A stretch of DNA of 63,998 nucleotides, filler included, from Atractiella rhizophila (Eukaryota), in assembly GCA_021432655.1 (NCBI GenBank). It is 4 parts of 4 records of this genome, joined end to end, with 100 filler letters (N's around TTAATTAATTAA, not from the genome) between each part and the next. Parts side by side here need not be neighbours in the genome. Positions count along the whole stretch, not along the records: positions 1 to 12,587 come from MU271880.1; 3 more parts are not named here. One strand, written 5' to 3'. Every line of letters begins with the position of its first letter. Positions within the stretch are counted from its first letter, which is position 1. Position numbers and translations under genes: made by a program. Below the pieces are notes generated by a model that saw nothing but the letters and a program-made list of their open reading frames with translations, ran no database searches and was not told where the DNA came from. Positions 1 through 52,364 of this stretch are shown in pieces.

Positions 1-409
1 TCCCCTTCCTCTTCCTCTTGGGGTCTCGCTTTCTCACCGCCTCTCCTTTCAACAACAATCCGCCCGGTTCCACATTACTCTGTTTCTCCGAATCCACCTC
101 CATCTTCTCTGCATCCCCATTCACATTCTCCACACCCGTCACACCATTTCCATAAGTCTCCGTTCCCTCATCCCACCCCGCCAACCTCCTTCTCTTATTC
201 GCTCGCTCTCGTTCCAGCTCGACACCTTCCAGCCGTCGATTCCACCACGACTGCTTCTCGGTCTTGCAGAAGTTGGCGGCGACGTTCTTCGCGTTCAGGT
301 ACCCGATGACATGGTAGGTCGTGTATTTGAAGGAGACGGTAGGGATGGCAGGGCTGTCTGGTGGGGCTTGGGCGGAGGGAGCTGGTGCGGTGGCTTTCTT
401 CTTGGGCAT
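1..409 (-). CDS. 5' end of a probable actin-related protein Arp8 (INO80 subunit); runs off the window
   Basis: Open frame from ATG at 409 to the window edge: MPKKKATAPAPSAQAPPDSPAIPTVSFKYTTYHVIGYLNAKNVAANFCKTEKQSWWNRR...; the YTTYHV...NAKN...KTEKQ segment resembles the fungal Arp8 N-terminal extension (from memory); NLS-like KRRR. Confidence 0.45.
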   Translation of the reverse strand, partial: MPKKKATAPAPSAQAPPDSPAIPTVSFKYTTYHVIGYLNAKNVAANFCKTEKQSWWNRRLEGVELERERANKRRRLAGWDEGTETYGNGVTGVENVNGDAEKMEVDSEKQSNVEPGGLLLKGEAVRKRDPKRKRKG

Positions 410-1098
410 TTTGATGATCTAATTGTAGAAAGGCGTGGAATGTATTAGTCTGATGATCTCTTTTGAACCAAGCGGCACTGTTGAGGTTCAAAGTATTGAA
501 CAGCTGGAATGTTCTTCTGCCAATTGCCCGCGTGCCCTTTGCTTGAAGAAGAGAGGCTCACTTAAGAATTTATACAACTTGACTTTCTCGTTCACCCAGT
601 GGCTGTTACAATTTTAAATCAGAAAGAGAGGTTCTCGCACTTTTTGTGTTTCCTATGTTTATCGCGTTGTCTCTCGCATTCAGTCACTACCCGCCTGACT
701 AACGAGCGTGATCTTCCGTGACTAACCTCACGACAGGTTGTGTTCCACGTGTTTTGCTCCACGCGTTTGTTGCCATCAATCAATATTTATTTCAAGACGT
801 GCTGGACACCATCTTATAAGCAAGCTTGTTTCTCTTTTCAGCTTCCCCTACTGTATATTCTTGGCTTGTTCCCCACTCCCCTTTCTCAGAGTGAACAACG
901 TGTTGAGTGCGGGATAACACCAGTCGAGGTGAACAGTCGCAGCTGAGGCTAAGAAACGAGCAACGCGCGGTGCATCACGCTCTCTATCAGCCAACAACCG
1001 AGTCCGCAGATCATATAAGTACTGATTACCCCGCTTTCACCTCACTCACTGGCAATCTTCTCGACTTCGTTCTTTCAGCGTCGGACCTTCCTTTGAAC

Positions 1099-2613
1099 AT
1101 GAAATCAGCCATCCTCTCTTTGTCGCTCGCCGCTCTGGCCCTCGCTTCCCCTTTGGAAATCTCACAGAAGAGGGCGACCGTGTGTAATGGACGTAGTGAG
1201 CTGTGTGGGAGGAGTTATGGGAACACGACATTTTTGATGTGTGAGTTCCCTCTTCCCCTTTTGTGATCGCTTGCTTGCCTGGAATCATGTCAAGTACGAC
1301 GGCTCTATCTGGTGTGGCGCTGTCTTCATGGACACGATTTCTCAGCGCAGGATTGTTCCTGACACCATTTTATCTTAGAAGCTTTGGTGTCAAAGCAACA
1401 TCCTTTGATCCTCTGTACAGGATCCTGCAAAATGTTCTCTCGGCTTTCTTGCCTCCATGATGTATAAAACTTGAGTGCAGTTCTGAACCGATCATTTGCT
1501 GCAGCACACGACTCCTACGCGATCTCGACGAACGTCCTCAACCCAGCGCGAAACCAGCAAGTGTCCATTGCGGACCAGCTAGGGTTTGTGTTCCCGCTTT
1601 CTCGATTGTAACTTCCTCCTTACTGTTCGATATCAGGAAATACGGAGTGCGAGCTCTCCAAGCCCAAGCACATATGAGCGGCGGAGTGCTCAAGTTCTGT
1701 CACACATCCTGCGTCCGTCGTCCCTCCTCCTCCCATCCTCGTGCTTCACACTCTGATCGTGATGACCCACAGCTCCTCTTCGACGGCGGATCCGTTGTCG
1801 ACTACCTCAAGAAGGTGAAGACTTTCATCGACGCGAACCCAAACGAGGTCTACACGTTGCTCTTCACGAACCCGGAATCCGTCGCGCTCTCGACGTGGGA
1901 CCAGGCCTTTGTTGATTCTGGCATCAAGCCGTTGACGTATGTGCCGCCCAAGTATCCGTTGAAGAGCAGCGAGTGGCCCACGCTTGGGTCCATGATCGAC
2001 AGCGGAAAGAAAGTCGTGGTGTTCATGGACTACGGGGCGAACACGAATGCGTACCCGTACATCCTTCCCGAGTTCGACTTCATGTGGGAACCTCCGTTCA
2101 GCGTGACCGATCCTAGCTTCCCGTTCGTTCTCCTCTCCCTCCACCCCATCCAACCTTCAATCCTCATTCATTCTTCAATACTGACTCTAATTTCACAGAT
2201 GCAAAGTGGACCGAATCTCTGGATCCCTCTCCGTACAAGACCATCTGTACATGATAAACCACAACCTGAACGTGAAGCTCATCTCCCTTCCCTTCCGCAA
2301 CTCCTCCGCCGTCGCCCAAGACATGCTCTCCCGCGGCGTCCCCCTCTCCGCCCTGACCGGCGCCTCCACCTCCCCTCTCGGTCTCAGCGCTCGCGCCTCC
2401 GACGACGACGTCGTCGAATTAGAGAAGAGGGCGACGGAGGTCCTCGTGCCCGACTTCTTTAATGCCGGAACGACGAACTCCCAGGCTTCGATCCTTTCGA
2501 ATGTGAACGGCTGCGCGCCACTCGCGGGTGGGAAGGCGACGAGCTTCGTGATGATCGATTGGGTCGATATTGGAGCGGGGAAAGCGACGGTTGATAAACT
2601 CAACGGCTTTTGA
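1099..2613 (+). CDS. Secreted PLC-like phosphodiesterase (PI-PLC X/TIM-barrel type), multi-exon
   Basis: Signal peptide MKSAILSLSLAALALASP, Kex2 site QKR, CNGRSELCGRSY, spliced SHDSYA (intron 1241-1504), RALQAQAH, FCHTSC, NPNEVYTLLFTN, VVVFMDYGA, YMINHNLN; stop at 2613. Confidence 0.9.
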
Positions 2614-2704
2614 AAAGTCTTGAAGGCCCATCCTTTGGGCTTGAGTTGCAATTGCAACGAAAGAGGGTTTGCGGTTTGGTGCGAATTTTGAATAATAACT
2701 GTCG

Positions 2705-2779
2705 TTCTGATGTTTTTGCAAATTGATACCCATTTTATCACATTCTGATGTTTTTGCAAAATTGATACCTATTTTATCA
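2705..2779. repeat. Two-copy ~37-bp tandem duplication in the 3' region of the PLC-like gene
   Basis: ttctgatgtttttgcaaattgatacccattttatca followed by ttctgatgtttttgcaaaattgatacctattttatca. Confidence 0.9.
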
Positions 2780-3194
2780 TGATCGTCGACCTTTCGCCTC
2801 CATCATTTCAAAACCCGAATGTCAAGCTTTTGATAAATCAATTGGATTGTCAGGACAAAATACATGGGATTTCAAGCAACCTACTCCATTCCTCCTTCCC
2901 TTCACGTTCGATAGTCAGACTGAGACGATGGTAACCAAAGATCTTCACACTTTTCAAGACGACATCTGGGTAGAAGTGACGGGTGTGTCTCAAGATAAAT
3001 TCCTACCTTTAGACCTCATGGAGCTTCATGTGCGGTGAGGAGAACAGAATCAACTGCAACGAAGTTTAAACGAAATTTCAAGCTCAGATTTTGGACAGAG
3101 GTGTTCAGCCGCGACATTTATAGCATGCGATATGTCTGCAGCAAATTTTGAAAAATGTGCGCGACGTGACCAGGATCCAAGATTTTTGATTCGC

Positions 3195-4457
3195 TTATAA
3201 GACCCATTGGAAGGTAACTCCGTGTGTCTGGAAAATATAGTCCCAACGTTCGAGCTCTTCGTCAGCAAATTGAACTTCTAGTGGGAAGTGAATTTCCAGA
3301 TTGGAAAGAGATGGCGGCGTGCTGATGATGGTGGAAAGCCACAGAGAAAAATTGACTGATGTTCCTGTAACGTGGTCTAGAATCAATGTGCGCAAAGCAG
3401 GTGGAAAATATCCTTTCGATCCTCGGTCCCACGCAATCAGATGCAACCCGCTGAGGCAGAGGAGTTGCAAATTGTCGCACTCGAGCAGGAGCGCATAGAA
3501 TTGGTTGCAAAGCGTTTGTCTTATGCTTTTGTTCGTCGTCATTTGATCGTTCCTCAGCTCTTCGCCAGACAGCCGCAAACTTTTGATTGACTGTTTAATC
3601 CTTCTAAGCAGAGGAAATAAAAGTTTGTCGATGCCGTGATCCAATAGAGCAAGTTCGAGGACTTGAAGAGTGGGAAAAGGCGAGTTTAGACCAAGATCGT
3701 GAACAATAACATCTTGTATCGTTGTAATACTCTCCTTGTGATTTTCCCTGTCGGCAGGCATGAGAATGGAGGTCAGACCGATTGGGAGGAGCGGCGAATT
3801 AGGAAGAGTATCTTTTCCGGACTTTGCGGAAAACGAATATGCTGGAAGTTGCATATCGAAACAGTTGTCAATCCACCCTTGGATTCCATCCACTCCAAAG
3901 AAACTCTAGTTTGGTAATGTGCGGATACTTCTGAAGTAGAGAGACCAAGAAACGCGGTTTATCATTGAAAACCTGGATGTGACGCAAAGTGCGAAAACCA
4001 AACATCTTCTCGAAGTCCGGATCATTTCTACTCGGATCACATCGGAAGTAGAAAGGAGACCAGAATGTAAGTGTTTGAATGTTTTGGCACAAATAGCACA
4101 GTTTGGCGAGAGAGAGATTGTCCATACGAGCGGCAGGGTCGATCGACTTGCTTGGTGATACTTTGATGTCAATGTCTTTCAGTCGAATGGACAGCTGTTT
4201 CACCGAGGGAGCATAGGCTGGATAAAGCTCAAAATATCGAAGGAGCTTGTCGACATCCTTGTAAGAACGTAATTCTAGTGACTCTCCACACAAAATGTGC
4301 CTCACCTATGGATGGAATAAGTCAAATACTATGTCAAGAGACTTACAATTGGTTGAACGCGTCTCGATATGCGAAGTAGCCTGAGATTTTCTGCCGTCCA
4401 ACCGTTGACTACGAAAGAGAATATCAAAGTGAGTAGCTCAGTAGGCAGGCTGTCCAT
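3195..4457 (-). pseudogene. F-box/LRR-like gene with a single frameshift near 3895
   Basis: Exon 1 MDSLPTELLTLIFSFVVNGW... (F-box motif), GT-AG intron, exon VRHILCGESLE...; ORFs 3868-4305 and 3195-3893 join (LEFL-GVDGIQGW, cf. FEILGADGDDRGW in the paralog at 7820) if one T is removed from tttctttgga. Confidence 0.75.
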
Positions 4458-4593
4458 TGCAGAGACATGTCTCGGAGTAAAGGACTCGGAAGCATTCGCA
4501 GCTCGTCCAACTTGGGGAGTGACGTGCGAATGAACCGAGGGAGTTGAACGGAGCTTGTTACATAGGTTCCGATCAAAAAGATTGAACGACTCT

Positions 4594-5050
4594 CTAAGTC
4601 TGGATCAGTTGGAAAACGGAGATGTTGCTTGCGTACTTTAAACTGGAAGGCGCGAACTGAAATTGGTCAAATGGGGCAGAAGCAGCACTCCCAGAGGCTC
4701 GAACATTTGGCAAGCTGTCTCCTGTAGCCTTATCGATTTGGGCTTTGATATTAAAGATTTGCTTTGCAATTGTGGTCCAAAAGTTCCTGAAGCCAATATC
4801 GTCAAGTGAACCATCGAATGCGATCTTCGCCTGCCACCGGACAAGCCACTGGGATAATACCAGCTCTAAGTCTTGCCAGGCAGATGTCGCCGTATCAATC
4901 CCGCTTCTCTGAGCCGTCATCGTACTGTGTGGTGCCTTAGATTGGATTGTCGGCGAATGGTTGTTGCTTGTTGATGGTCACGTCTGTGCCACTCCGTTGT
5001 TAACGTTCTAGTGGGACCAAACAACTTGAACGTCGTCGACGAGCTGGGAC
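4594..5050 (-). CDS. Hypothetical protein fragment, copy 1 of a local duplication
   Basis: ORF 4594-4920 shares NFWTTIA.Q.F.IK...KA.GD..P...AS......F..FQF..SSL with ORF 6555-7016. Confidence 0.4.
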
Positions 5051-6049
5051 GAACCTTCAATAGCTGATAGCCATGATTGAGAACCTCATATGGGTACGAG
5101 AGACTTAAGGGAGTTCTAGACGGGTGAGTTCGTCAATTCCTCTGACCATTTTTACCTTCGGGTTCTCTGATGTGAGGTGATCAAATGCAGAGACGACAAC
5201 GAACTGTGACGCCCTACCGCTCTCGGATCGCCCTCTGCACCCTCTGGATACTCTTAGCTGCTAATCCCGACCACCTCGTTAGCACTTCAACCTCAGTTTG
5301 TGAAGCACCATGACCCTTGCCGCCACCGCCAAAATCAGGTCCGTCTCACTTCTTTACCTCTTTTTCATGCTAAAGATACTTGCAGCACCATTCAAAATCT
5401 AGTACAACCACTCAAATGATGCCAAAATCCCTGCCCGAACGCCCTTCAACCTGCTCGAACGCCACCCTTTCAGCACAGAGACCTGACGCTGATTGATGCG
5501 TTATCCTCGAGGAGAGGGGTGATTCAGATGGGGGATATTAGTGTTTACAATGTTTATAAGCCGAAAAGAGAGGGTTGAAGACATTTGAGCCTAGCGAGGG
5601 AAGATCGCGAAACACAAGTCACAGCACCAACTCCCTCCCATCGCCTTTCTTGCATCTCTCCCATTGTCGCGGCACTATCTCCTAGATCCGGCCAAGACAC
5701 CTCCCTCGCTCATACCCAACCGGCGAAAGCATGCGTCAGCCGTAGAATGAACAGTAACATTCGGGATGCGACCACTGACAATTGCAAGGCAGCTCTTCGT
5801 TAGGTGAGGTGTTCTTGGACCTGACACTAGAAGGAGGGAGAATCACATTAGAAGGTTTAAATGCATCGATTCGTAAGTATTTAAATTATTTTCTTCTCGT
5901 TTTAGACTCTGGAGGTTCGCTATAAGTAGTGGCTGACGATCTAGGTTGGACTTCAAGTCGAGGGAAGGGCAGTGTCCAGATATAGAGCAACTCTATTGCA
6001 TGTTGCGTGCATATTCCTAGATTGCCACTGGAGCATGTTTTGACAAATC

Positions 6050-7250
6050 TAACAAGAGCATTTTACTTTGTCCATGACTGTTCAGAAACATGTCTGCGCA
6101 AAGGCGACATTTTGCTCTCAAAAGTAATTTTCCATCGTTGGACTTGAGGCGGGTGCAATGTCAAATTCAAAATAAGATGGATAATGTGTTTCCAGAGTGG
6201 AGAGAGCTAGTGAAGCTCGGGTGATTGTAGAAAGCCACAAAGGATGATCTCGTGAGGTTGTGTAGTCAGGTCATCGTAATATCGAGATCTTCACCTGACA
6301 CCCGCACAGTTTGGATTGACTGTTCGATCGTCCTCAGAGGTGGGAGTAAAGTTACTCAGGGCTATAACCGAACAGAGCCAGTTCAGGAGCTTAAAGAGCA
6401 GGCAATGTCGAGTTCAAACTAAGATGGCGAACCAAAATGTCCTGAATCCTCGTTACATTTTTCCTAGAACTCTGCTTAATGGCGTCTCGATAGGTGAAGT
6501 AACTTGGTGTTTCGAAGCTCCAACTGTCCACTACAAAAGAGAAATCGAAGTAGCTCATTTTCTGATGAGGAGATCCCTGTCCGAGCAGGATATATTTGCG
6601 GCTCGCCTAAGTTGGAAAATGTCATGTTGAACGAAACTTGATGCAAAGGTTCTGATTGAAAAGGTTGAATTCCTGCTTAGAATTTGTATTAGCTTGGAAA
6701 AACAAAGACGTTGTAAACTCGAAGACCCGAATTGAAAAGACTGGAAAGAGGAAGAAGTAGTCTCGGAGGCAAGATAATCAGGCACAATGTCTCCTATGGC
6801 TTTATTTACGTGAGACTTGATACTGAAAACTTGAATAGCGATTGTGGTCCAAAAATTCTGAAGAAGTATCTCCAATCGAACCATCGAATAAAATCTGTGC
6901 TCGCCACTGGACGAGTCACTGGGCAGCATCAGATCCGAGTCTCGCAAGGCGACTGCTGCCGTATGTATCCCTTCGATTCTTTGAGAAGACATGGTACTTT
7001 CTGGCACAGTCGGCATTGCTTTGACGTGCCTGGTGCTTTTGCTTTTTGGTTCAGAAGTGCAACAAGGCGCAGCAGATCAGGTGATCTCGTCTTGACAGCG
7101 AATCTGGCCTTATGGACGCACTTCCCGTTGAGTTGGTGGACACGATTTTCTCTTTCGCCGTGCTTGGATGGAATGTCGGGACCTATAGTTGGCTGTGGAT
7201 TTCTAGAAGGATTGAAAATTCCGTAAGTTTTCTGGTCACACGTTTATAAG
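6050..7250 (-). pseudogene. Degenerate duplicate of the (hypothetical ORF + F-box gene) module at 3195-5050
   Basis: ORF 6555-7016 is paralogous to 4594-4920; 6480-6560 (gcgtctcgataggtgaagtaac...gtagctca) matches F-box exon 1 at 4358-4440; 6130-6260 resembles 3240-3380; multiple stops and deletions. Confidence 0.6.
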
Positions 7251-7819
7251 TTAATTAGTTCAGGGCTTTGATGAGATTTGCTTCCACATGACAAACAGGT
7301 CTGATCTGTGATTTCATAAATGGTCTATATGCTCCTCTTAAGGAGTAAGAAAACATCCAACGAGGGGATATTGTCGTCTCGTGTTGTCCCGCACAGCTTT
7401 GTGATACAGTGCACATCCTTGCATGCTTGGATTGCAATAGTTGACAAGCTGATGTACTATTGCTATGGTCACATTTATAACAGGCTTGTCTATGATCCGT
7501 AAACAAAACCTGCCAGCATCCAGCACTCAACCAGGACAATGAGTCCACTGCTTGATAACTTCAAAACTGCCAGATGTTACAACCTTCCTCTCCTCGTGGA
7601 GTACAGCCTTGTTGATTGTTGCCATCAGTAAGCCTCATATTAAATCCAGTCTCTTGATTGGCTAGCGCTTTTATCTTGCGATAATAGTCATGTACTTCAA
7701 CTTGTATTGGTAAATGCTTATTGATAAGCCCTCTAATGGTGGAATGCTGCGATGTGCGATCAAATTATCCTGCTTCTTCATCACAGAGCTAGCAGTCTAA
7801 GAATTGGCTGCGACTTTAG

Positions 7820-8440
7820 GTGAGACGAGCCTTGTGCGAGGAACCTCCTGGCATCTTTGAGTACACCGATGTTCATAAACTGCTTCGATACCTTGCTCGA
7901 TATCCAAGCTATGCACAGTGTGTTCGACACCTTCAAATCGATCTCTACGACGAAGCTTATTACGGTTACGAATTAAATTCCAACAAGCTGGAGAACGAAC
8001 AAAACACGGCTGCTCTGTCTCAGCTCCTCCTTTTCTGCGTCAATGTCACCACACTTACATTCTGGGCCCCCTTCAACTTTTCAGGTACCAACGGTCACAT
8101 GTGGGAACTCCCCTGTTTAAGGCACATTCGAATTCTGAACACTCATCCAAACTTCCTCTTACCTCTCTTGGAGAGGTATCCCAGCATGACCACCTTCGAG
8201 ATTCTCGGAGCGGACGGAGACGATCGAGGGTGGTTAGGCAACGCTCCTGGGGTGTTTACGCTCAAATATTCAACAGAATCTTCCAAAGATGATCTACAAG
8301 CAAATGGCGTCCATGACGGTGTCCTTTCGAAGGGCCTCAGGTCAATTTTGATGCCTGCTAAAGAGTACGATTCTGCTGCGACCACCATACAAGATGTTCT
8401 CGTCAGTCTCCTACGCGATAATTTCAATCTGCCTCCTCTT
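7820..8440 (+). CDS. F-box/LRR-family paralog, middle exon; its 3' half lies in the reversed block (read 10450 back to ~9937)
   Basis: Starts after acceptor tttag with VRRALCEE...DVHKLLRY...YP.YA, aligning with the 4305 paralog through ILMPA...TTIQDV; similarity stops abruptly after LPPL at 8440. No F-box exon 1 recognisable upstream. Confidence 0.8.
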
Positions 8441-10450
8441 TGCTTAGAGTCTTCTGTCAGTGGCTCGCAATAGTTTTTTGAGTGTAAACCATGCCGGAGG
8501 GTGAAGGGTTTTTTTTTCGACGACTGTAACTATGTCTCTGGTACAGGGGGAGGTAGTGCTATTCGTTGCCGAACTTTTCGTGTTGACACCCGTTCGATCC
8601 GATACCAGAATACTTAAAACACTCAAGGAGGGAAGTTAAATTCGAAGTGATTTGGGTGTAATCGTGGACCTTCGGACAATGCCAGAGGTCTGCTTGCACG
8701 GAAAGGTCGCTAGTTTCGTCGTAACTAAGACCAAGTTGGAAATAGTTGCGACCGCTCAAGATGTTAGCGGGGCTTCTTGGCCCTCGGTTAGAGTTCGAAG
8801 AGCGCGCGAAAAAAGTTTCGAATGGGGCCTATGCGGCTGTTCCAGAAGGAAAGACAGTTTCCTCGTTGGTTAAACCTTTTGGAAGTAGGCCTGACAAGCA
8901 GGCTTTTAGACTCCCCGTCACAGCTATCCTATGATCGAGTAAACCTACCTTGATTCTCCGAGCTAAACAAGGTCGGACGATCTTAACTAGCAAGGTCCAG
9001 GTAGCTCCTATAACACTTTCTGAACTTTCCGGAATAGCTCCTCCCTTTTAAGCTAGTGTAACCTAACAGACTCACACAGCAGTGAAACGTGGGTTACAGT
9101 CAGTCGCGCAACGACTGGTTTATTGTTCCCAAAGCCGACGATGAAACTTTGCACGAGTTCGGCACATGGGATAGAGAGAGCACTCTTGTATAAAAAGATG
9201 AACGACAGGATAGTTTCAGGGATTGTAGTGAACGTCCAACTTCGCCTTATAAGGCAGACCAGGGTTCTATAGCTTTTGTTACCGAACGAACTTCGCACGT
9301 TCCTTAACTTCTAGGGTTAGCAACCGATAAGAGGAGAACCAAGCGTTGAGAGATAGTGTCACGACGGAAAGACTGCGAGGATAAAGAGTCCCTCTCCTTA
9401 CGACCGTCCTCGAGAGTTTAGTCGCAGACTGCATGGGTTTCCGCTGTATTCTAGAATAAAACTAGCAAAGGTTCATTCCACCGAGAAGTGATATCACAAA
9501 CGCTGAATATAAAAGTAGGTCGGGCTCTTAAAGCTAGTGTTGGAAGTTGATCAAGTGGTCGATAGACGTAACCGACGATTCTTCTTGCACAGTGAAGGAG
9601 TCGAAACAGAGCGAACCCGTAACTCTGTCCTTACCCAGGAAGGATAAGGACCAAGGCATACAAACATGGGAGGTGTCTTTGCTTACGACTCGTGTAGCCA
9701 CATCTGAGCGGGTCTTCCACAAAATCTCTTGCACCCACGAGACTTCCACTGTTATTGCCTCCTACTTCTGTTCCTATAGTCTTTCACGCGTCGACTATGA
9801 CGCCAGTTTCCCCCCGCAATGTTACGGGTGTAGCTCAGCTCAGAAAAACAGATTTATAGTAGAAGGTTCATGTTAGTACTAGACAGATGTTTTAAAATAC
9901 AATACAATTTGGTTGTGCTGGGAGTTTTGGGATTGAGATTCCGAAAGCGAGATGTTGTTTTACGAATATAACGTTACATTACAACATAGAAAGTTCAGAA
10001 GGAAGGTATGGGAATATGGAAAGCCGCGACTGTTGCCCTACCCTGGTTAGCTTCGACCCTTGATGGCACTAACAGCTCTATCCACCCAACTTAGAAAACT
10101 TACAGAGGAGGGTATCTCTTTATAGTTAGCTTATTGGAGGCTAAAAATAGGTTTTGCTCAAGTGCTTGTCTTCTTCACTTCATAGGTGCGCTACTGCGAA
10201 AGGTTGGTGAGTTTGGGTGAACTCGATTTACTTCGTGGACTTCTCTAAACGTCGGAAGGTCGTCAAGCATTTTTACTCGTCTAGGTCGTGGTAGCAGCCT
10301 GAGTAGACGAAGAGACATAGGCATCGGACCTAGTTACGAAAGAAGCGACGGCCTTTCAGCATCCTGAAACTAGCTTCGAACATAGACGTCCTCCTCCCCC
10401 TTGTCCTCTAGTAGCCGACATATAAGCTTTTCACGGTTAAGCTCCTAAAC
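8441..10450. other. 2010-nt block in reversed, non-complemented order (probable gap-fill artefact)
   Basis: Reading the letters backwards from 10450 without complementing gives caa atc ctc gaa ttg gca = QILELALFEYTADDLLFPLLLQIQASIKVLRLSG, the in-frame continuation after ...cct cct ctt at 8440 and matching QVLELALLDHGIDKLLFPLLRRIKQSIKSLRLSG of the paralog. Confidence 0.97.
8542..9854. CDS. Aldo-keto reductase, pyridoxal reductase (AKR8/Plr1)-like; readable only as the base complement read left to right
   Basis: Complement gives MSPSITISNGLKSTTVGKLGYGLMNF/TWKP...IDSGSTFINAGEFY...DKVFLSVKG...LDLFQPARID...EGKFDHIGLSE...VEAEYSVWS...GYSPLGRGML...QLCLAW...LPIPGS/TRPEGVLEN...GGRY...SLFV*, with canonical GT-AG introns and a few 1-nt indels. 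Confidence 0.93.
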
Positions 10451-10795
10451 NNNNNNNNNNNNNNNNNNNNNNNNNNNNNNNNNNNNNNNNNNNNNNNNNN
10501 NNNNNNNNNNNNNNNNNNNNNNNNNNNNNNNNNNNNNNNNNNNNNNNNNNNNNNNNNNNNNNNNNNNNNNNNNNNNNNNNNNNNNNNNNNNNNNNNNNNN
10601 NNNNNNNNNNNNNNNNNNNNNNNNNNNNNNNNNNNNNNNNNNNNNNNNNNNNNNNNNNNNNNNNNNNNNNNNNNNNNNNNNNNNNNNNNNNNNNNNNNNN
10701 NNNNNNNNNNNNNNNNNNNNNNNNNNNNNNNNNNNNNNNNNNNNNNNNNNNNNNNNNNNNNNNNNNNNNNNNNNNNNNNNNNNNNNNNNNNNNNN
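10451..10795. other. Assembly gap (N run)
   Basis: 345 N. Confidence 1.
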
Positions 10796-12587
10796 TCGGC
10801 CAAACAGACTCGCTGGATCAACAGAAAGCGTGGAGCCCATATACAGGAACAGAATACGAGGTTCACGTTTGCCCTTCAAGTCAGCCGACTCTTTTTTACG
10901 AAGAGGTAGATAGGGCCCAATTAAAAGTTTCAAGATAAGAGAGACTTTGGTTTCTAACGAGTCGTCGAGGTATGATTCTTAACTCCCATTCAGTCTTATG
11001 CGCTCAGGGATGTTATCATTGTCAGCACTCCTTTACATTCTTCTTCTTTCTCATAGGGGCAGAAAGGATGGTGAATAGATGAGTAGCAAATTGACAGTTA
11101 TCTGATGACCATAATATCAACTTCCACGACACTCTAGGAGCATTTCCAGGACGCGTTCTTGTTCTTTCCTCCTTATTCATCCTGGGAAGTCTTAACGACA
11201 TGAAAGCGTGACATAATAGGCGTCAGTCGAACAAGGATTCTCTCCCCATTGAAACAAGAAGATCTAGCTTCGACATATCATATATCAATTTCATGATCAC
11301 GCGACGATGCGACAAAAATGTATCCCAATCCTTGTCCTCCTGGAAAGCAAAACTTCCTGCTACGGGCGATGACTTCGAAGAAGGACGTCAACAGTGCAAG
11401 CATAGGCGTTCGTCACATTGACAAAGACGAGAAATAAGTGAATCAAAGCAGCATCCACACCCAGAGGGAAGCGCTTAAGCTGTTGACTGATAAACAGATA
11501 ACGTCCGACGGTCCAGGGAAACTGTCGCACCGACTTCTAGGTAGGAAACTCCAATGTCGTAGAAATCCTGCTTTGCTCCAATCTCGTTCATTGTCTCTCT
11601 CCCCTGCCTCTCCCGGCCCTTTCTCAATGGACGGTCATATTGACAGCTTCAAGTTTCACAAAACACCGAAACCCAATTACCCCATATTCCCGCCGGCCCG
11701 CATTATTCTTCGATCGTTTTCAGATTGTCCGACTTACTCGAACGACGACTCCAATTCTTCCTGCTCCCCATCCCACCCGCCCCACCCGCTGCGTTATGCC
11801 CTCCACTTAACACTTACGTCCCTCTGACTCGCACCATTCCCGCGTTATTGTCACGCCGAAAGCTGCACGAAGGGGTGGGTCGCCTCCACTTCTGCTTATC
11901 GAAGGGTCACGAAGTCGAAAACGAATCACGATACGTCACACGGAAGAGAAGGTGGTAGCTGTAGCGGAGCACTTGATTAGTGATCTGCAAGTGGAGGTTG
12001 CTGGTGCTGAGCAAATACTTTATAACGGATCGCGACACTTGGGGTTGCCATCAGCTCAGTCCAGAGAAGAGGCAGCATAAAAGATGTCGCTCATGATTGC
12101 AGCTATGCTGTTGTCTAGTGGAGGCAGGTTCGATATGTCTCAGCCATTCGCGCATTGGGAAGGAATTGGAGGGTTTGGTGGAGTGGACGAAGGACCATTG
12201 TGCGTCTCTCTCCCCGTGTTTCTGTTACTTCGGTTCGAGACCGCGACAAACTGTGGAGACTGATGTGTTTAATTGTTCCTTTTTTAGTTCGCTCAAGAGG
12301 TACACCTCCGCCACTACCAAAACCTCCTGCCTTGAGGCAGAAACAGAACCAGATGAAGGAGAGCGGGAGACAATGCACCCATCAGGTCTCAAACTCTCCA
12401 TCTCCCTCTCCTCACCGCCCTTCCGCACCCACGACATGGCACACGGCAACATCCGCATCACTCGTCTTTCCCAACAACAACAACAAACACTACCGAGAAT
12501 CACAGCGCACTCCCTCTCCTTCCGCGTCTTCTACGAATCCCGTTCCCTCTTCCGGCACGCAAGTATGGAAACCACCTTACCTCCCTC

Positions 12588-12687
12588 NNNNNNNNNNNNN
12601 NNNNNNNNNNNNNNNNNNNNNNNNNNNNNNNTTAATTAATTAANNNNNNNNNNNNNNNNNNNNNNNNNNNNNNNNNNNNNNNNNNNN
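12588..12687. other. Artificial scaffold spacer
   Basis: 44 N + TTAATTAATTAA (stops in all six frames) + 44 N; identical at three sites in the window. Confidence 0.97.
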
Positions 12688-29803: not shown

Positions 29804-29903
29804 NNNNNNNNNNNNNNNNNNNNNNNNNNNNNNNNNNNNNNNNNNNNTTAATTAATTAANNNNNNNNNNNNNNNNNNNNNNNNNNNNNNNNNNNNNNNNN
29901 NNN
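29804..29903. other. Artificial scaffold spacer
   Basis: 44 N + TTAATTAATTAA + 44 N. Confidence 0.97.
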
Positions 29904-41805: not shown

Positions 41806-42966
41806 AAGGGATTCTTGATGTGCTCAGGGTTTACAGATGTATACAGGAATTCTTGTTGTGATATTCGTTGATACAAACTAGCAAAGCCGAGTCGCAATAG
41901 AAGAGAATCTTGCATGAATGAAAGGAATACCGTTCAGCTCTGATTTAAAGCGCATCGTCTTTCTGCTCAGACAGCAATTCCTGATCCTAACGGCTTCTGT
42001 CGCAAGAACCCTCCACAACTTCACGAGCTTCATACTGGATCCAACTCTTCATTACTTTTTGCCCTTAGCTCCGTAGTCACTGCCGCAGTCGTGTTTGACT
42101 TAGATGCAATTGTGAAGGACTGTTCCACCAGCTGATGCGTCTTAGGTTAGGGATCTCTCACTGTCGAGCTGCGCCACCATTTTTTCCAACGCGAAGTGGT
42201 TTTAACAGAATACCAGTAGCACCGAAGCACAGGTCTTCCAAGATTGGAGATCTCAGAAGGTTTTCCTGACCTTTAATTGTCCGAACACTTGCAATATATG
42301 ACACTATACCGCTGAAACACAAAAGGAATGAGAATAAGCCTACTACTGTGTGGGATCAGGAACTTTAACAACTAAGGTTGAAATTTTACCATAGATCTTT
42401 AACAACGCGTCTTTGTACCCAGAATACAATGGCTAGCTTGTGCGGATGAGCCGGGAAACCTCGTAATAGGTCTTCCCTAGACCCCTGTAAGTTCTCAGAG
42501 CGAAATCACGTCTCCTTGCTCAGCCACAGCACTCTGATTGAGGAGTACTCATTTTGGACAAAATGATCATGAGTCTGCTCAAACGGTCACGATGATCGTT
42601 GATGAAGCGGTCGCGCACTTCCTTTTTGGGCCAAATTCTAACGAAGCGCCTCGCAACCATCCTCCGACCAATTTCCATCATTTACAAGCTTTAGGAGAGA
42701 TTAATACGAGCTGTATATCTAGTGTGAGTCCTTCTTAAGCGCTTAATATCAAAATAACTTGGGATAATGACTGTAGGTTAGTGCCATTCGCTGGGCATCC
42801 CGCCCACTGAGTTCATTGTCCATCCAGAACTGCTGGGGTGGTATTGTGCTGGATCAGGGACTGGGGGAGGTGCCGGATACTCGAGATTAGGTGGATAGTG
42901 ATATTGTTGGTGGAGTGGAATGGCTGTGGTTTGATGGTGATAGGCTTGATGTGGTGAGTACAGTTG

Positions 42967-43641: not shown

Positions 43642-43800
43642 GCGTTAAACTGTGCCAAAAATCCAGTGCACATTGTTCTTGTGCTTTGAGTATGGTAGTT
43701 ACGGCGACGTCAACAAAACTTACCGTAACTAACAAAGTCTTGCACTGCGCTGAAAAGAGAAAGAAAAAGTTAAACGAATAGTGAGGGATCGTAGGAGTTG

Positions 43801-45300
43801 TACGGAAGATTCTTCTTTTTTGGGGGAAGAAATTGGTGGGTTCTCAATCGTTGGGTTTTTCTCTTCCTAATACACCTCCGACATCTTTAAATAATCTCCT
43901 CCGTTCTCCTCCGACTGTCCTGTTTCTTGTTCTTCACACCGATAGAGGAAAGCACTCGTGAGTGCAGTTATAACGATAGGTTTACCGTTTCCCCCCGAAA
44001 TGGATGTACTTAATACCCTGTAACTCCTAAGCCACAGTTCCTCCCAATTCAGCGTAACTTTCAGTAGTTGTGGACTCTGAAAATTCGCTTCCTCTTCTTC
44101 GACCCGAACATTCGACCGAATCTACCCAACCTCTAAGTCCAGAAGGAGAGGTGGCCTCCCCGAACATAGACCACCACTTCTTCTAATATCCTACCTATGG
44201 CCCGTTCTTTACCATGAGGGCAAAGTACTTCACCTTGTTTCGACTTTAGTTCTCGAAAGTCAGTTTAGGAAACCTGGGTTTCGGACGGTCTCGTAAGTTA
44301 GCTTTGTTTACAGTTGAACATAAAGTTAGAGTAACTCCTATGGTACAGTTCTATACCGTAGTAGACCCTATTACAACGTTTATACCTACTCTTTCCGGAG
44401 GTCAATCCTCCTCCTGCCTTCTACCCGTCCGCCGCTCAATATCCACGACGACTTTCCTTTTGTCAGATAGCTCGTTTCAGCCTATTCGACCTCGACCAGT
44501 GTAAGTAACTTACACACTGACGTTCACCTCCTAGTGAGAGAGGAGATAAATAGAAGAGACCATTTGCGAAAGTCTTTCGGACCAATCTCCTAAATTGTCT
44601 CCGTGTTTTCTTAGCCTATAACACGCGAGAATAACGATGACGAAGAGTTGTGAGTGTGAAGAAGAAATCACAGCCAGATAGTCTTTTACCCACCTGTCTA
44701 CTCCACAACCCGATAGACACCAAGTGTGACTAAATACAAGGGATACAGGTTTTAGCTGGACTAGGATCGGAAGGTACAGAGGAGCAGCAGCTACCGGTGT
44801 CAAGGGTGCGTAGACGCGAGTAATAAGCAATGCAGACCCTCTTGGAAGCACTACAGCAGGTGTAGTAGACGGAGGGGGGGAGTGTGCTGTGTGTTCAACG
44901 TCGGTGAACTACAACCACATAAACCTGACTAGCCTTCCCGAACCTCGCTATAATGTCTACTAAACGACGTGCTACCTAAACTGCAGAGGTTCTTGTTAGA
45001 GTAAAGCTCTATGAATGCTACAGCCCTACTTCCTTACTTTCGTTCGTGATAGCAGTCACGAACCCGCAGCTGTCCAGAGGACTGACACAAGGTAAGCTGA
45101 ATCTTAGAGTTGACAAAGGGCTACTGCTTTCGAACCTGAATCTGTTCAGACTATTACTACTTCTACGGTAAAGTCTGAGGCTCCTCGGAGGGTGCTAGCT
45201 TGTCCCAAAGGTGGAGTAGCTGGGGCTGTGGACGGACGGGATGCGAGTCGTTTTGCTATAGCTGGTCGGGAGGTAAGGATTGGGGGGAGACCACTTTAAC
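43801..45300. pseudogene. pogo/Fot1 DDE transposase, readable only as the base complement read left to right (reversed block 43642-~45450)
   Basis: Complement gives LLSEGEEAGLVSWL...PGKKWYSRFMK (CENP-B HTH), ANMDEKGLQLGGGRK, LELVTFIECVTASG, SENGWTD, LLVVDGHSSH, LPP/HTTHKLQPLDVGVFG; contains stops and indels. Confidence 0.92.
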
Positions 45301-46473
45301 TTAAATTTGCGGATTTTGCGCACCCTTGTCTCCTCCCTACAATCCACTCAAACAGGTTACCGTCCAACGAGTTGTTGACTGACCACAGCAACATTTCGGG
45401 ACATGATTGGATAGACCTTACACTTGAATTGGGGCAAGAGAGATTTGGGATATTGTGTATATTTTTGCAGAAAATCACTATTCTGTACAACACCTTATTT
45501 TCCTTAATAACTTACAGAGATGTGCAGTAATCATCTCAGTGTTTATAAGTGAAATGTGCGTATGGGTGAGGAGAATCTGAATCCAGAATTTCTAAGAGAT
45601 TGGTACAGTTTTGGGAGACTTTAATATGTAGTGTTAAAGATCCTGATCCCGTTAAAGTTCCTGATCCCACACAATACCGGTCTCTCAGATCTCGTTTTCC
45701 ATGTATACGAGATCAGACGACATGCTGGACACTTATTTTGATACAACGTTCATCCGGAACTTGGTCTGCTCACTTCCTGGAGTCTATTCATTCCAAGGCC
45801 TCCTCGCGAAATGGACGAGTGCCAACGTACGCTAAATACTCGAAAACACCCTCCAATCACTCTCAGCAGCTATACAATAGAACGAAATGTCATCCCGCTC
45901 CTATCTGAATTTGTGTCTCTTCGCAGATTGAGGATATATAATTCGACAAGGGGCACCTCCATGCATTAAAAGAATATCTTGGTAAAATATCATCTGGAAA
46001 ATCACATTAGTGACAGAGTTTTTGCTCATTTTTGATCAAAATAAGAGTTCCATGGGGTTGTGCGAGAGGGCTAGGAGACGCTGTGCATACCCATACCCTT
46101 AAAATCGGTGGAGGGACCCGGGACCGGGCAACTTGGATGGACGAATTGGATGGTTGAAAGGATTAGGATTACAAGAGTATTTCAGAAACGTGTTTGCAAT
46201 CTACGAAATAATTTACCCGTGATTTCATATACTACCGCGGTATTCTCCAGACGAAACAAGCATATAATGTTCATCGTTGCACCATCCGAGTCGGCTCCGA
46301 ACAAGGGCAAAGCTCCTGAAGGTTAAACTATCCCTGCTGGGCCAATTAGACCGTAATATTGAACAATCGACCACGATTCCATCTATCTCATTTACCTGAG
46401 GTGCCACGGCGCATCCTTCTTCTTCCTCCAGCTGTCAACTTTGACGTTGCGTTGTGGCGGTTGATTGCGCACG

Positions 46474-47013
46474 ATGGAGGCTCTCTCAATTCTCACGCCT
46501 CTTTCCTATCATGCCAGTAGTTGTGGCTACTGCTCAACGCGGGTCTCTCCCTCTGGAAACAAACTAAGAAGCGAAAAAAAGTCTTCCCTTTCTTATGGAA
46601 TGTGGGCACACCGTCTTTCACCACAGGCAGGATGTTCCCAATGCTTCATGGAAATCTTCTAACGTGGTCGCAGATGTATCAGAGCCTTATTGATAGAGGT
46701 TGGCGGAGGTTTGTTCTCTCAAGGGGTCATGGCGAGCTCACGAATGATTCAAGGATGGGATAGGTCTGGCCATTATCTGTGGGTTTTCTTCTTAAACAAT
46801 ATCAGCAATGAACTAGTGTGGCCAGGTACCATCCTGACATGGATCGCACTTGTTGTCCGCAATACGCCATTCGCCTTCTGGTAGAAGACTTCAAGCCGTC
46901 GAAGAGCATGCGACGGGTGATAAATCGATTCAACCGGTAAGCATTTCATGACCGTAGGACAGGTCTTATCCTTGGCTTAGATTTTTAATCGACGGTGGGA
47001 AAGATGAAAAGAC
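46474..47013 (+). CDS. ATE1: Arginyl-tRNA--protein transferase, 5' part (truncated by scaffold end)
   Basis: SSCGYC, YQSLIDRGWRR|SGHYL|YHPDMDRTCCPQYAIRL...FKPSKSMRRVINRFNR. Confidence 0.93.
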
Positions 47014-47113
47014 NNNNNNNNNNNNNNNNNNNNNNNNNNNNNNNNNNNNNNNNNNNNTTAATTAATTAANNNNNNNNNNNNNNNNNNNNNNNNNNNNNNN
47101 NNNNNNNNNNNNN
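47014..47113. other. Artificial scaffold spacer
   Basis: 44 N + TTAATTAATTAA + 44 N. Confidence 0.97.
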
Positions 47114-47945
47114 AGGAGGCGTCATTTGGAGAGGATCAGGCGATTCTGTCTGTCTTCCCACCATCATTACTCCAGTCCAAGGGTCTCTCTGAGGAACAAG
47201 ACGTAGTGGGGTGTTACTGGCCGCTCTGGGGCTGCCTGTGGCCTGTCTGGTTCTTCTTCCCTCTCTTGCTCCGCTTCCTGGTCTTCTCCTTCATCCCTCA
47301 ATCCTTCAAAACGATTTGGGGATTCCACCCTGAGTCTCTCACGTTCTCCCTTATCCTCCAGAGCGTCCTCCTCCTCCTTATCTTCACCAAAATCCAAAAG
47401 GGCGGCAGGAACATCTCTCTTTCTTTCTCCCACCTGATCCTGATGTTCTTTCCTGGTCCCTGAGGTGGTTCCAATGCGTTTTCCTTTCTCCTGACTTTGC
47501 AGAGCATCTCCCTCTCATCAAATTTCGCAATATCTCGAGTAGATCTTCTTTAGACACTGGACTGGTAGAGTAACCTATAAAGGCACATCTGCATGTATGG
47601 GATGCCATACTGTGGCTTCTTTCGTCCTTCTGCACTTGGACATAGGCAGTGGAGCCTAGCACTCTGAAACGTGAAATATCGACTAGTTGTCCTGTAGGCA
47701 ATGGAGCGGTTGATGGAGGAAGAAGGGGATCTGTTTCTGATATGAACGACAGCCGAAGCAACGTGAGGCCAGAGGAATAGTGGCGAACCAGATTCCTCCA
47801 GTATCGCCACCATACCCTCCTGAATCGTTCTATTTGCTCTCTCTGTTCTCTCATTTTGATCAGGAGAGTTCCTAATCATTTGCTCGCGCTGGATGCCACA
47901 GTTTCGCAGGTATTCATCAAAATCCTTGGAGGAATAGGCCCTTCT
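47114..47945 (-). mobile_element. Ty1/copia integrase remnant
   Basis: YSSKDFDEYLRNCGIQRE...SPDQN...ERANRTIQE...W...AVVHIRNRSP, FRVLGSTAYV, RCAFIGYS; diverged inverted homolog of 50750-51480. Confidence 0.9.
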
Positions 47946-48204
47946 TTGTCTTCTCTGATCTCGATGTGAATGTAATGCAAGAGGTAAAAAAACATATGTG
48001 TCCACTTCCACTGGCCCACCTTTACGGATGTCATTCAACTTCATATCGACCTGGTTCCAGAAATCCTTTTGCGCCCCCATTTGGTTGAAAATTTTGATCA
48101 CTGAGCCATCCGTCGTCCAATCCGTTTGAAACTTTGGGATCATAAATGAGACCCCCTTACGCCTATATCCACCCTTTCTACAAAGATCGGACAATTCGAA
48201 CTCG

Positions 48205-49910
48205 AATTTTATCACCATGGCAGAAGAAATAAAATTTTGATTACCCCCCTTGGACAGAAGGACTATGGCACCTGGTGCATTGATATGCAGGCAGAATTGA
48301 TGAGAAAGGGGTTATGGGAGATAGCCTCTGGAGTAGAGACAAAACTGGAAGATTTGAAGAAGCAAAAATAGTGGCAAAAGGACAGCTCCAAAGCGACTGG
48401 GATCCTGTTCCTTAGCCTAGAAGCGACCCAGAAAGCTCATGTGGTCTCTGTCTTTCAAGATCCAGTCAAGATCTGGTCCACCCTTCAAGACATACACCAA
48501 TTGAAACGTTTCCCCACTCATTTCATTGCCCTTAACCCCCTCCTTGCCCTCCAGAAGAAGGACAGCGCATCCTCTGTTAGTTGTAGTGTGTTGTGTTGGT
48601 CATCTGCTCTTATGACTCTTATGAGTCATCACTATGTAGTTTAGTTCTGCCTAGGAGTGTTGGTGCTCATTATTGACCACCAACCACTCCTAGGTATGTC
48701 TCTCTATACTTCTCTAATGTGCTCATTATTGACCAGCAACCACTCCTAGCCTTAGATCCTTACATGGTAGCGAGAGCTGGTGGCTAGGATTACATTTGGT
48801 CACACCTATATCACCTTCCCCCTCCTCCAGACCACAATTTTCACCATCCCACACTCAAATTTCGCTCAATTTCGATGATTAGAACAGATTTGTGATCCTC
48901 AAACATTCCTTTACCACCTTAGAAGGTTTCTGTCTACTCAGGAATCAAGAAAAATCGAAATCTATCACCTTACCACCCATCTCCTGCCTCAAACGCACTT
49001 TGCCACCCTGGACTCAACCTTTGACAAATTTGGACGTTATAGGGCTTATTTTGATCAAATTTTATCACCATGGCAGAAGAAATAAAATTTTGATTACCCC
49101 CCTTGGACAGAAGGACTATGGCACCTGGTGCATTGATATGCAGGCAGAATTGATGAGAAAGGGGTTATGGGAGATAGCCTCTGGAGTAGAGACAAAACTG
49201 GAAGATTTGAAGAAGCAAAAATAGTGGCAAAAGGACAGCTCCAAAGCGACTGGGATCCTGTTCCTTAGCCTAGAAGCGACCCAGAAAGCTCATGTGGTCT
49301 CTGTCTTTCAAGATCCAGTCAAGATCTGGTCCACCCTTCAAGACATACACCAATTGAAACGTTTCCCCACTCATTTCATTGCCCTTAACCCCCTCCTTGC
49401 CCTCCAGAAGAAGGACAGCGCATCCTCTGTTAGTTGTAGTGTGTTGTGTTGGTCATCTGCTCTTATGACTCTTATGAGTCATCACTATGTAGTTTAGTTC
49501 TGCCTAGGAGTGTTGGTGCTCATTATTGACCACCAACCACTCCTAGGTATGTCTCTCTATACTTCTCTAATGTGCTCATTATTGACCAGCAACCACTCCT
49601 AGCCTTAGATCCTTACATGGTAGCGAGAGCTGGTGGCTAGGATTACATTTGGTCACACCTATATCACCTTCCCCCTCCTCCAGACCACAATTTTCACCAT
49701 CCCACACTCAAATTTCGCTCAATTTCGATGATTAGAACAGATTTGTGATCCTCAAACATTCCTTTACCACCTTAGAAGGTTTCTGTCTACTCAGGAATCA
49801 AGAAAAATCGAAATCTATCACCTTACCACCCATCTCCTGCCTCAAACGCACTTTGCCACCCTGGACTCAACCTTTGACAAATTTGGACGTTATAGGGCTT
49901 ATTTTGATCA
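48205..49910 (+). repeat. 853-bp tandem duplication (copia gag fragment + LTR + PBS + leader)
   Basis: Identical ORFs offset by 853 nt (48441/49294, 48892/49745); the two units look identical by eye. Confidence 0.93.
48575..48777 (+). repeat. 190-bp LTR (TG...CA, 48575-48764) plus primer-binding site TGGTAGCGAGAGC
   Basis: Begins tgttagttgtagtg, ends ccttaca; repeated at 49428-49617 and, truncated, at 52313-52364; tRNA-iMet-type PBS follows immediately. Confidence 0.9.
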
Positions 49911-52364
49911 TGAAACACTACGCTATAACTTTACTAGGAACTGTCTTGGTCACAATAAGCGAAAATTTCAAGATAGCCACTCCATCACCTCCTTCATACC
50001 CCCAAAACCCATTTTTCGACTTTTTGAGTCAGATCTGGTCTGATCTGGACGATTTTATCGCCATTGGATTCACAATAGGCTATTCTACTATCCTACAGCA
50101 GATCACCTTGATCAGAAGAGTCAAAATTCGAAATTTGCCACCATCACATCATCACATCAGCCCCTACCTCCTTTCTCCAACATCAGTGGATCTTAGGACT
50201 CAACCACAGGGTCTAGGAGGATGTTTCGGATGGAAATGGCTCTTAATGGGTTGGAATTTGCTGGGCTGAACAGTCTTGCTGCAGCAAATGATGTCACTAT
50301 GCCTCAAGCAAATCTTGAGTGGATAGCAGACACTGGTGCAACTTCCCACATGTCTCCCCATCATTATTGGTTCAGAACCTACCAGAAGAAGGTCTTCCAG
50401 TCACTTCCAGAGAAGGGTATCGATATTGGGTCACCTGTTGGATTGGGTGTTATATTTTGTGGTCTTGCGTTGTGTGGTCAGCCACCTTTGTTGTGTTTGC
50501 TTCATTTCGGAGTTTTAGCCCCCTAGGGGGCAGTTTAGGCGGTCATCGTCTTTGACCACCAATCTCTGTCCCCAAGCTCCATCCAGCATCAGATTCTCTC
50601 ATCAGCCTCATCGACGAAGCAACAAATCATTGCACAATTGCCTTCCTTAAGAAGAAATCAGAGGCCCCAGAACTCTTCAAGACCTTCAAGAATTGGGTAG
50701 AGAATGTCACTGGGAAGAAGATCAAGAAGTTTAGAAAGGACAAGGAAGGCGCTTATTCCTCCAAGGAATTTGATCAATATCTTAAGGCCTGTGGTATCCA
50801 GCGTGAACAGACTATCAGGAACTCTCCTCATCAGAACGGCAGAGCAGAACGAGCCAATAGGACGATTCAGGAGACTATGGTCGCCATGTTTGAAGAATCT
50901 GGGCTTCCGCTCTTTCTCTGGCCATCTATCGCTTCAGCGGTCGTCCACATTCGCAACAGATCTCCCTCAGCTTCGATCAACCATGCTATTCCCCACACAA
51001 AACTCACTGGACTTACTCCAACCATCTCAAGATTCAGAATCATTGGATGCACTGCCTACGTTCAAGTTCAGAAGGATGAAAGGCCACACAGCTTAGGATC
51101 TCATACTCGAAAATGCGCATTTATAGGCTATTCACTTGCAGCGAAAGGGTGGGAGTTCTGGGATCCTGTTGCAAAGAAGGTCTATGTTCGAGATGTTGCC
51201 AGATTTGATGAGAGAAGATTATGTTGGAAGAGCCACAGGGACCACTTGATGAGTGGAAGGAGTGTCAGGATCAGGTGGGAGATAGACAGAATAGTGCTCC
51301 AGCTGGTCCTCCAGCCAGGATTTCGCTAGACGACAATGATGAAGAAGATGGATGGATTCGACAGCGAGGAGTACCTCCTACACCTCAGGAACAACCCAGA
51401 CTGCTTGGAATACAGTCTCCAAACAGATTTCAGCCCCTTCAGGTTGAAGAAGAAGGAGAAGAAAGAGAGCTGTCTCCAGATCCGCTACAGCTTGTGCCTG
51501 AATGCCCTCCAGATCCACTCCAGATCCGCCCCAACAACACCAGATCGGTCAAGCATCTTCTATGATACCTCAAAGGCACTCGGAACATAGGAATTGAGTA
51601 TTCAGCAACTGGTTTTGACCTCAGGCAACCTTTTCACACCTTCTGCAATGCCGATTTTGCTGGATGCAAGAATACTGGATGTTCTACCGGAGGTTATCTC
51701 CTCAAGATAGGTAATGGAGCGGTCAGTTGGAGCAGCAAACTACAATCCCTCATTGCCCTCTCTACTACCAAAGCAGAATATGTCTCAGCAGTCTCAGCAG
51801 GCCAAGAAGTCGTCTGGCTAAGGAATCTTCTAGAAGAAATTGGCTTCGCTCCTCAAGGTCCTACTCCCCTCTTCACAGACAGTAGCAGTGCTCTCCAGGT
51901 ATCGGAGAACCCTGAGCACCATGGTCGAATGAAACACCTGGACCTTCACTTTTATTGACTCAGAGATGTTGTTGAGATGGACAAGATCAGTCCAGTCTTC
52001 TGTCCGGGTGTCAATATGCCAGCAGACCTCCTCACCAAGGCACTTCCAGTAGGTAGCGTGGATAAGTTTCGACTTATGACGGGTTTGCGCCCCTACCCAA
52101 GTGTATGAGGCAGTTATGGGGCGCAATAAAATTCCTTTCCTCCTCTGTGGGGTTATAAGATGCCGCTTTAAGTGGTACGTGGACTTTTCCTCTTCTTTTC
52201 ATTGCAAAACTAATGTGCTTTCTGCTTTTATATTGGGTATACATTGTACGAATTTGGTGGGACATTCTCTGGATTTGGTGGGAGCATCAAGAGACAGCTG
52301 CCCAGGTGGGAGTGTTAGTTGTAGTGTGTTGTTTTGATCATCTGCTCTTATGACTCTTATGAGT
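49428..52364 (+). mobile_element. Internally deleted Ty1/copia LTR retrotransposon
   Basis: 5' LTR 49428-49617, PBS, protease WIADTGATSHM, integrase core 50590-51230, RNase H (ADFAGC...STGGY...VSWSSKLQ..IALSTT.AEY...HHGRMKHLD), purine tract aggtgggag, truncated 3' LTR at 52313; gag and most of RT absent. Confidence 0.9.

What the first reader, a model, noticed from the sequence alone, without database searches (positions are those of the whole stretch)
8441..10450. Mirror-polarity block hiding an entire spliced aldo-keto reductase gene
Seen: neither normal strand codes here, but the complement read left to right (equivalent to reading a strand 3'->5') is a full pyridoxal-reductase-like AKR (8542-9854) with GT-AG introns. 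Established: polymerases cannot produce a reversed-uncomplemented copy. Inference: a gap-extension step wrote a long-read fill in reverse order; adjacency to the N gap and scattered 1-nt indels fit this. Practical consequence: real genes are invisible to any standard annotation of this assembly.
Basis: partly seen in the sequence, partly recalled or inferred. Interest (0 to 1): 0.8.

Follow-up and report, generated by a model that had tools for sequence, protein, structure and literature searches.

The report
Backwards-written gap fill hides reductase gene
A 2-kb stretch beside an assembly gap in a fungal genome was written backwards by software, hiding one copy of an ordinary aldo-keto reductase gene; it is a recurring data error in this assembly, not new biology.

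Summary
Observation confirmed; it is an assembly artefact. Window 8441-10450 is the plain reverse (not reverse complement) of the true sequence, flipped in place. Another scaffold of the same genome (G000:C17) holds the normal copy: 96.4% identical over 2,019 columns, joint exact at 8440/8441. Contigs of 3 of 3 public runs bridge that joint in normal form. The hidden gene is a 7-exon aldo-keto reductase (8542-9854, six GT-AG introns); its twin is already annotated (P0001, 335 aa), so only this copy is invisible. The block also hides the last 170 codons of the upstream gene. One-base indels crowd at the end far from the anchor, mostly at sites where haplotypes differ: a thin long-read consensus. 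The fault is systematic: a second block lies at 43642-45291, and 3 of 15 gaps in a 600-kb sample abut one (1.6% of bases). A PBJelly-type extension step is likely but not shown. The scan had already noted this fault four times in this genome. Nine paper searches aimed at the fault or tool found no description. Pyridoxal reductase activity is untested.

The parts
8441..10450 (.). Mirror block 1: true + strand sequence written in reverse order, in place; base 10450 is the true neighbour of 8440
   Evidence: 96.4% to G000:C17:126479-128485 only as reverse; cut scan peaks at 8440
8542..8619 (.). AKR exon 1 (complement read left to right); one extra base near 8616
8664..9072 (.). AKR exon 2; three one-base indels near 8686, 8721, 8809; twin exon matches PF00248 at 87 bits
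9129..9180 (.). AKR exon 3; both flanking introns seen skipped in a contig of run X3
9237..9339 (.). AKR exon 4
9391..9473 (.). AKR exon 5
9522..9656 (.). AKR exon 6
9705..9854 (.). AKR exon 7 with stop. In true polarity the gene lies on the - strand, from about 10349 down to 9037, convergent with the upstream gene
7820..8440 (+). Normal part of the last open frame of the upstream gene (twin P0121, 406 aa, no Pfam match for the part tested); as deposited the frame stops 10 codons after the joint
9937..10450 (.). Hidden 3' end (170 codons in the twin) of the upstream gene, read from 10450 leftwards without complementing; open for 108 codons, 99 of the first 101 identical to P0121; one extra base near 10147. 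The left limit is computed from the twin's stop
10451..10795 (.). Residual N gap (345); the twin has 315 bases here; anchor-to-anchor span 2,355 here vs 2,322 on C17
43642..45291 (.). Mirror block 2, right of the 675-N gap; interior of a DDE-type DNA transposon copy (inverted ends 42344-42369 / 45651-45676); normal copy on C756
   Evidence: 98.3% over 1,439 columns only as complement; cut scan peaks at 45291; DDE_1 58 bits on the C756 copy; repeats

Best explanation
Assembly artefact. A gap-closing step extended the contig end at 8440 by 2,010 bases into a gap of about 2.35 kb and shortened the N run by that amount (span shown; procedure inferred). When pasting the extension it did half of a reverse-complement: it reversed without complementing, or complemented a minus-strand fill without reversing; the result is the same (in-place reversal shown; code path inferred). 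The fill is a thin consensus of noisy long reads from more than one haplotype, which degrades with distance from the anchor (pattern shown; read type inferred). In the organism the locus is ordinary: a + strand gene of unknown family and a convergent 7-exon NADPH-dependent aldo-keto reductase (TIM-barrel carbonyl reductase by family knowledge). Confidence 0.98 for the artefact, about 0.7 that the program is PBJelly or similar.
For: Normal twin with base-exact joint. Upstream reading frame runs on across the restored joint. Contigs of X1, X2, X3 bridge the joint in normal form with over 100 bases each side; no joint or loose end listed there. 13 of 17 listed variant positions inside the block, and 14 of 14 in the flank, show in those normal-polarity contigs the letter of the un-mirrored window. 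11 of 15 indel events in the distal 410 of 2,010 bp (p=1.5e-5, cut chosen after seeing the data), substitutions not (7 of 51). 7 of 10 indel events in the stretch covered by a third copy fall within one base of a substitution between the two normal copies (counted by eye). Same in-place reversal with a sharp joint at window 45291, C330 and C168. 3 of 15 gaps in 60 sampled 10-kb stretches abut a mirror block; away from gaps the only segment over 30 bits was a telomere repeat. PBJelly is described as extending flanks and reducing the gap, with gaps defined as 25 or more N (PMC3504050 passages); 3 of the 15 sampled gaps are exactly 25 N.
Against: The program was not identified and no paper describing this fault was found. 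Normal flanks have as many indels between haplotypes as the block (10 in 1,006 and 19 in 924 columns), so indels as such are not diagnostic; the coding-only contrast is modest (4 in 485 vs 1 in 1,033, p=0.04). The distal gradient is unclear in the C330 and C147 blocks (only parts aligned), and the C168 block also has a cluster near its anchor. 12 of 15 sampled gaps show no mirror block over the threshold.
Confidence: 0.97

Rival explanations
1. A real mirror-polarity copy made in the cell by parallel-stranded templating or an unknown reverse-order copying process.
For: None specific. The block differs from the C17 twin by 51 substitutions, but these look like allelic differences (22 synonymous, 2 non-synonymous).
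Against: No known polymerase templates in parallel orientation; even 3'-5' adding Thg1-type enzymes pair antiparallel (recalled). Blocks abut N gaps on unrelated sequences; the block's variants occur in normal polarity in run contigs; a mirror copy could not have kept a 22:2 synonymous excess by selection on a protein it cannot encode.
Confidence: 0.005
2. The reversal was introduced after assembly, by a curation, scaffolding or file-conversion script, not by a long-read gap extender.
For: The program cannot be read off the sequence; any script that mishandles strand gives the same letters.
Against: Blocks are 1.5-5.7 kb, end exactly at gaps, have no N at the anchor joint, and carry an error gradient and indels at heterozygous sites that mark them as newly built consensus. 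A scaffolder would flip whole contigs between two gaps.
Confidence: 0.1
3. The hidden copy is a true pseudogene: the indels in exons 1-2 are real.
For: Four one-base indels in exons 1-2. Runs X1 and X2 each have a contig with a different one-base deletion inside exon 2 (L039:7978), so a broken allele may exist in the species.
Against: Exons 3-7 are open with 0 indels; 22 synonymous vs 2 non-synonymous changes; at L039:8201, where the block lacks a base, contigs of X1 and X2 read a substitution; indels sit on heterozygous sites. This rival concerns the allele's state only, not the reversal.
Confidence: 0.15

Closest known systems
P0001, 'Aldo/keto reductase [Atractiella rhizophila]' (name as given by NCBI)
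   Different: The window copy is mirror-written, carries four one-base indels, and is not in P0001's cluster (1 member).
Fungal AKRs named pyridoxal reductase / pyridoxine 4-dehydrogenase (P0004, P0033, P0082, P0095, P0119)
   Same: 45-57% identical over nearly the full length; share Asn-Tyr-Lys-Ala at the four active-site positions.
   Different: Names are automatic; most of the 120 relatives are just called aldo/keto reductase. No characterised pyridoxal reductase was compared.
Perakine reductase (PDB 3uyi, 3v0s, 3v0u)
   Same: Closest solved structures by sequence, E 2e-50, residues 10-314.
   Different: Plant enzyme; has Asp and His where this protein has Asn54 and Ala131 (alignment).
PBJelly flank extension and overfilled gaps (PMC3504050; PMC9635638, PMC8848313, PMC7757076, PMC4580222; passages only)
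   Same: Extension from a contig end into a gap, gap shortened, 25-N gap definition, long-read consensus errors.
   Different: None of the passages seen mentions reversed-uncomplemented fills; use of this program here is not shown.
Mirror blocks noted earlier by this scan in the same genome (e1-7588550, e1-7572163, e1-7574419, e1-7574415)
   Same: Backwards-written stretches of about 2 kb, two of them described as beside gaps, hiding ordinary genes.
   Different: Other loci; AI notes, not rechecked here. This report adds a sampled prevalence and read-contig evidence.

Membership tests
Aldo-keto reductase superfamily (PF00248) | Profile match over the curated cut-off across the domain | tested here: met
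   Twin P0001: 213 bits vs cut-off 24, profile 1-290 of 291; mirror reading hit by 120 of 120 AKR proteins
Aldo-keto reductase superfamily (PF00248) | Catalytic Tyr and Lys | tested here: met
   Tyr59 and Lys91, invariant in 120 of 120 relatives; roles recalled and read from the alignment
Aldo-keto reductase superfamily (PF00248) | Canonical tetrad Asp and His (recalled) | tested here: not met
   Asn54 and Ala131; shared by 116 and 118 of 120 relatives, so a subfamily trait, not decay
Pyridoxal reductase (AKR8-type) | Clusters with a characterised pyridoxal reductase | tested here: inconclusive
   45-57% to five proteins so named by databases; no characterised enzyme in the set; the paralogue P0004 bears that name in this species
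Pyridoxal reductase (AKR8-type) | NADPH-dependent reduction of pyridoxal to pyridoxine | not testable with these tools
   needs an enzyme assay
Long-read gap-extension artefact (PBJelly-type) | Added sequence abuts a gap and the gap is shortened by its length | tested here: met
   span 2,355 vs 2,322 on the twin; 345 N vs 315 true bases
Long-read gap-extension artefact (PBJelly-type) | Indel-type errors rising away from the anchor | tested here: inconclusive
   clear in this block and partly C168; unclear in C330 and C147; block 2 confounded by loss of alignment after about 1,440 bases
Long-read gap-extension artefact (PBJelly-type) | Assembly was processed with that program | not tested
   provenance of G000 not looked up; 25-N gaps are only a hint

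The most novel reading that the evidence does not exclude
An undocumented strand-handling fault in a widely used long-read gap filler has left mirror-written blocks beside gaps not only here (about 1.6% of sampled bases, roughly 50-750 blocks) but in many public draft genomes, hiding genes from every annotation and BLAST search; a simple reversed-versus-forward Markov scan would find and recover them.
Probability: 0.4. Interest if true: 0.5.

Novelty: not a real feature. Interest (0 to 1): 0.15.

Why it matters
No new biology: the gene is an ordinary AKR with an annotated twin. It matters as quality control. In this assembly an estimated 0.8 Mb (extrapolated from 3 blocks in 600 kb, wide interval) is mirror-written; genes there are missed or truncated, which can fake gene loss, hemizygosity and orphan C-termini. 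The fault is invisible to six-frame searches but easy to detect and reverse. If the same step was used on other genomes, they need the same scan.

Tried and rejected
DNA search of the own genome with the block as deposited: only itself and 132 bp of flank. Repeats at the joint that might support a template-switch origin: none of note. Block 2 at first seemed to argue against the artefact because it matches C147, C51 and C638 as deposited; those places are themselves mirror blocks beside gaps, with normal copies on C756, C349 and C270. False positives of the Markov scan: a telomere repeat (51 bits) and two segments of 25-26 bits away from gaps in the sample, one of 29.5 bits on C613. No allele found for the 5.7-kb block on C246: it rests on composition (212 bits) and two 75-79 bp complement-only matches. 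Longest-ORF comparison favours the mirror reading in 8 of 8 blocks but weakly. NCBIfam gave no match over cut-off. A truncated product of the upstream gene was not found in the protein collection (lengths 162-517 only). Paper searches for the fault or tool found no description; the library is open-access only and no supplements were read. PMC4700284 (passages) gave no tetrad residues. Scaffolds under about 50 kb are not in the random sample.

Full report
Observation. The window is several scaffolds of genome G000 joined by 100-base linkers; 1-12587 is C701. An order-4 Markov model, trained on both strands of the window away from gaps, scores almost every 500-base bin higher forwards than backwards. 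Two segments break the rule: 8446-10450 and 43691-45277, each touching an N gap. The complement of the first, read left to right, gives AKR-like peptide; 120 of 120 AKR proteins hit that reading at E<1e-5 and none hits the sequence as deposited.

The normal copy. The assembly holds more than one haplotype. A PF00248 search of G000 gave 85 matches, of which 20 were fetched. One, on C17, matches window 8310-8440 normally (97.7%) and the block only as its plain reverse (96.4%, 2,019 columns). The flanks continue to match C17 on both sides (86% and 91%). The best cut is after 8440 among 14 tried; base 10450 is the true neighbour of 8440. Between the anchors C17 has 2,322 bases, the window 2,355, of which 345 are N. 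So the block is an extension from 8440 into a gap, flipped in place.

The genes. On C17 the AKR has 7 exons and 335 codons without a stop, reading the same as P0001, which NCBI names aldo/keto reductase of Atractiella rhizophila. In the window the exons map to 8542-9854 with six GT..AG introns, 22 synonymous and 2 non-synonymous changes, and four one-base indels in exons 1-2. P0001 scores 213 bits on PF00248; its closest solved relative is perakine reductase. The four active-site positions read Asn-Tyr-Lys-Ala, as in 116-120 of 120 relatives, five of which databases call pyridoxal reductase or pyridoxine 4-dehydrogenase (45-57% identity). The substrate is untested.

Reads. Contigs of runs X1, X2 (one sample) and X3 were laid on the C17 stretch. 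Each run has a contig crossing the joint in normal form, and no joint or loose end is listed there. The table showed 40 of 192 variant rows; of the 31 positions up to the block's end (7 rows beyond it dropped), 27 show the letter of the un-mirrored window, 13 of 17 inside the block. X3 has contigs at depth 5 that skip exactly introns 2 and 3, a weak sign of splicing.

Nature of the fill. 11 of 15 indel events lie in the 410 bases farthest from the anchor, against 7 of 51 substitutions. A third copy of the locus (C1197) covers that part. All 7 substitutions of the block there are shared with C1197, and 7 of 10 indel events sit within one base of a site where C17 and C1197 differ by a substitution. 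That is what a consensus of few noisy reads from different haplotypes gives. Against over-reading: normal flanks are also indel-rich, and the gradient is unclear in two other blocks. Whether the true C701 allele is intact stays open; X1 and X2 show another one-base deletion in exon 2.

Extent. Block 2 (43642-45291) is the interior of a DDE-type DNA transposon copy, normal on C756. Other copies beside gaps on C147, C51 and C638 are mirror-written too. In 60 stretches of 10 kb from scaffolds over 50 kb, 3 of 15 gaps abut a mirror block, 9,346 of 586,438 bases; two were confirmed by a normal allele with a sharp joint, the third by composition only. Extrapolated: about 260 blocks (53-752) and 0.8 Mb. 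Blocks occur left and right of gaps.

Mechanism. Shown: in-place reversal, gap adjacency, shortened gap, recurrence, normal sequence in run contigs. Inferred: a long-read gap-extension step that applies half of a reverse-complement to some fills. PBJelly extends flanks and shortens gaps and defines gaps as 25 or more N (PMC3504050, passages); 3 of 15 sampled gaps are exactly 25 N. That it writes 25 N for overfilled gaps is recalled. A biological origin would need parallel-stranded templating, which no known polymerase does (recalled), and would not follow N gaps.

What is known. Nine searches of the open-access library aimed at the fault or tool found no description; I saw listings, and passages of PMC3504050, PMC8848313, PMC9635638, PMC4580222, PMC7757076 and PMC4700284; no supplements, no software trackers. 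The scan's own notes report the same fault at four other places of this genome; they came after my reading and are not independent evidence.

Verdict. Not a real feature: a systematic assembly error hiding one copy of an ordinary, already annotated AKR. Interest 0.15, for its value as a quality-control warning.

Noticed in passing
window 43642-45291: Second mirror block, right of the 675-N gap, inside a DDE-type DNA transposon copy with 26-nt inverted ends (42344-42369 / 45651-45676) that is absent from the matching place on C177.
   Followed up: yes
G000:C701, C17 and C1197 (L039, L049): Three copies of this locus, all different from each other (86-94%): three haplotypes, mixed material or a duplication. 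Run contigs also show three letters at L039:6313 and 8201.
   Followed up: partly
L039:7978: Contigs of runs X1 and X2 lack one base inside AKR exon 2, so a frameshifted allele may exist; not present in C17 or in the block.
   Followed up: no
L104:383-6061 (C246), L092:3016-4664 (C168), L114:1998-4135 (C330), L041:2993-5565 (C147), L042:4657-6647 (C51), L043:1545-3262 (C638), L052:232-1851 (C99): Seven further mirror blocks beside gaps; their hidden genes were not annotated here. C246 and C99 rest mainly on composition.
   Followed up: partly
window 7820-8440 and the related stretch near 4543-4932: The upstream gene (twin P0121) has no relative outside this species in the search made and no Pfam match; sequence upstream of it has diverged repeats on C701, C17 and C142 (67-76%).
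   Followed up: partly
window 12588-12687, 29804-29903, 47014-47113: 100-base linkers (44 N, 12 bases with stops in all frames, 44 N) join separate scaffolds; not genomic.
   Followed up: yes
window 47001-55000: CpG counts drop to 9-26 per kb against about 50 elsewhere, as in methylated or mutated repeat DNA.
   Followed up: no
L039:8385-8446: Run X3 skips 62 bases just upstream of the AKR start: possibly a 5' UTR intron.
   Followed up: no
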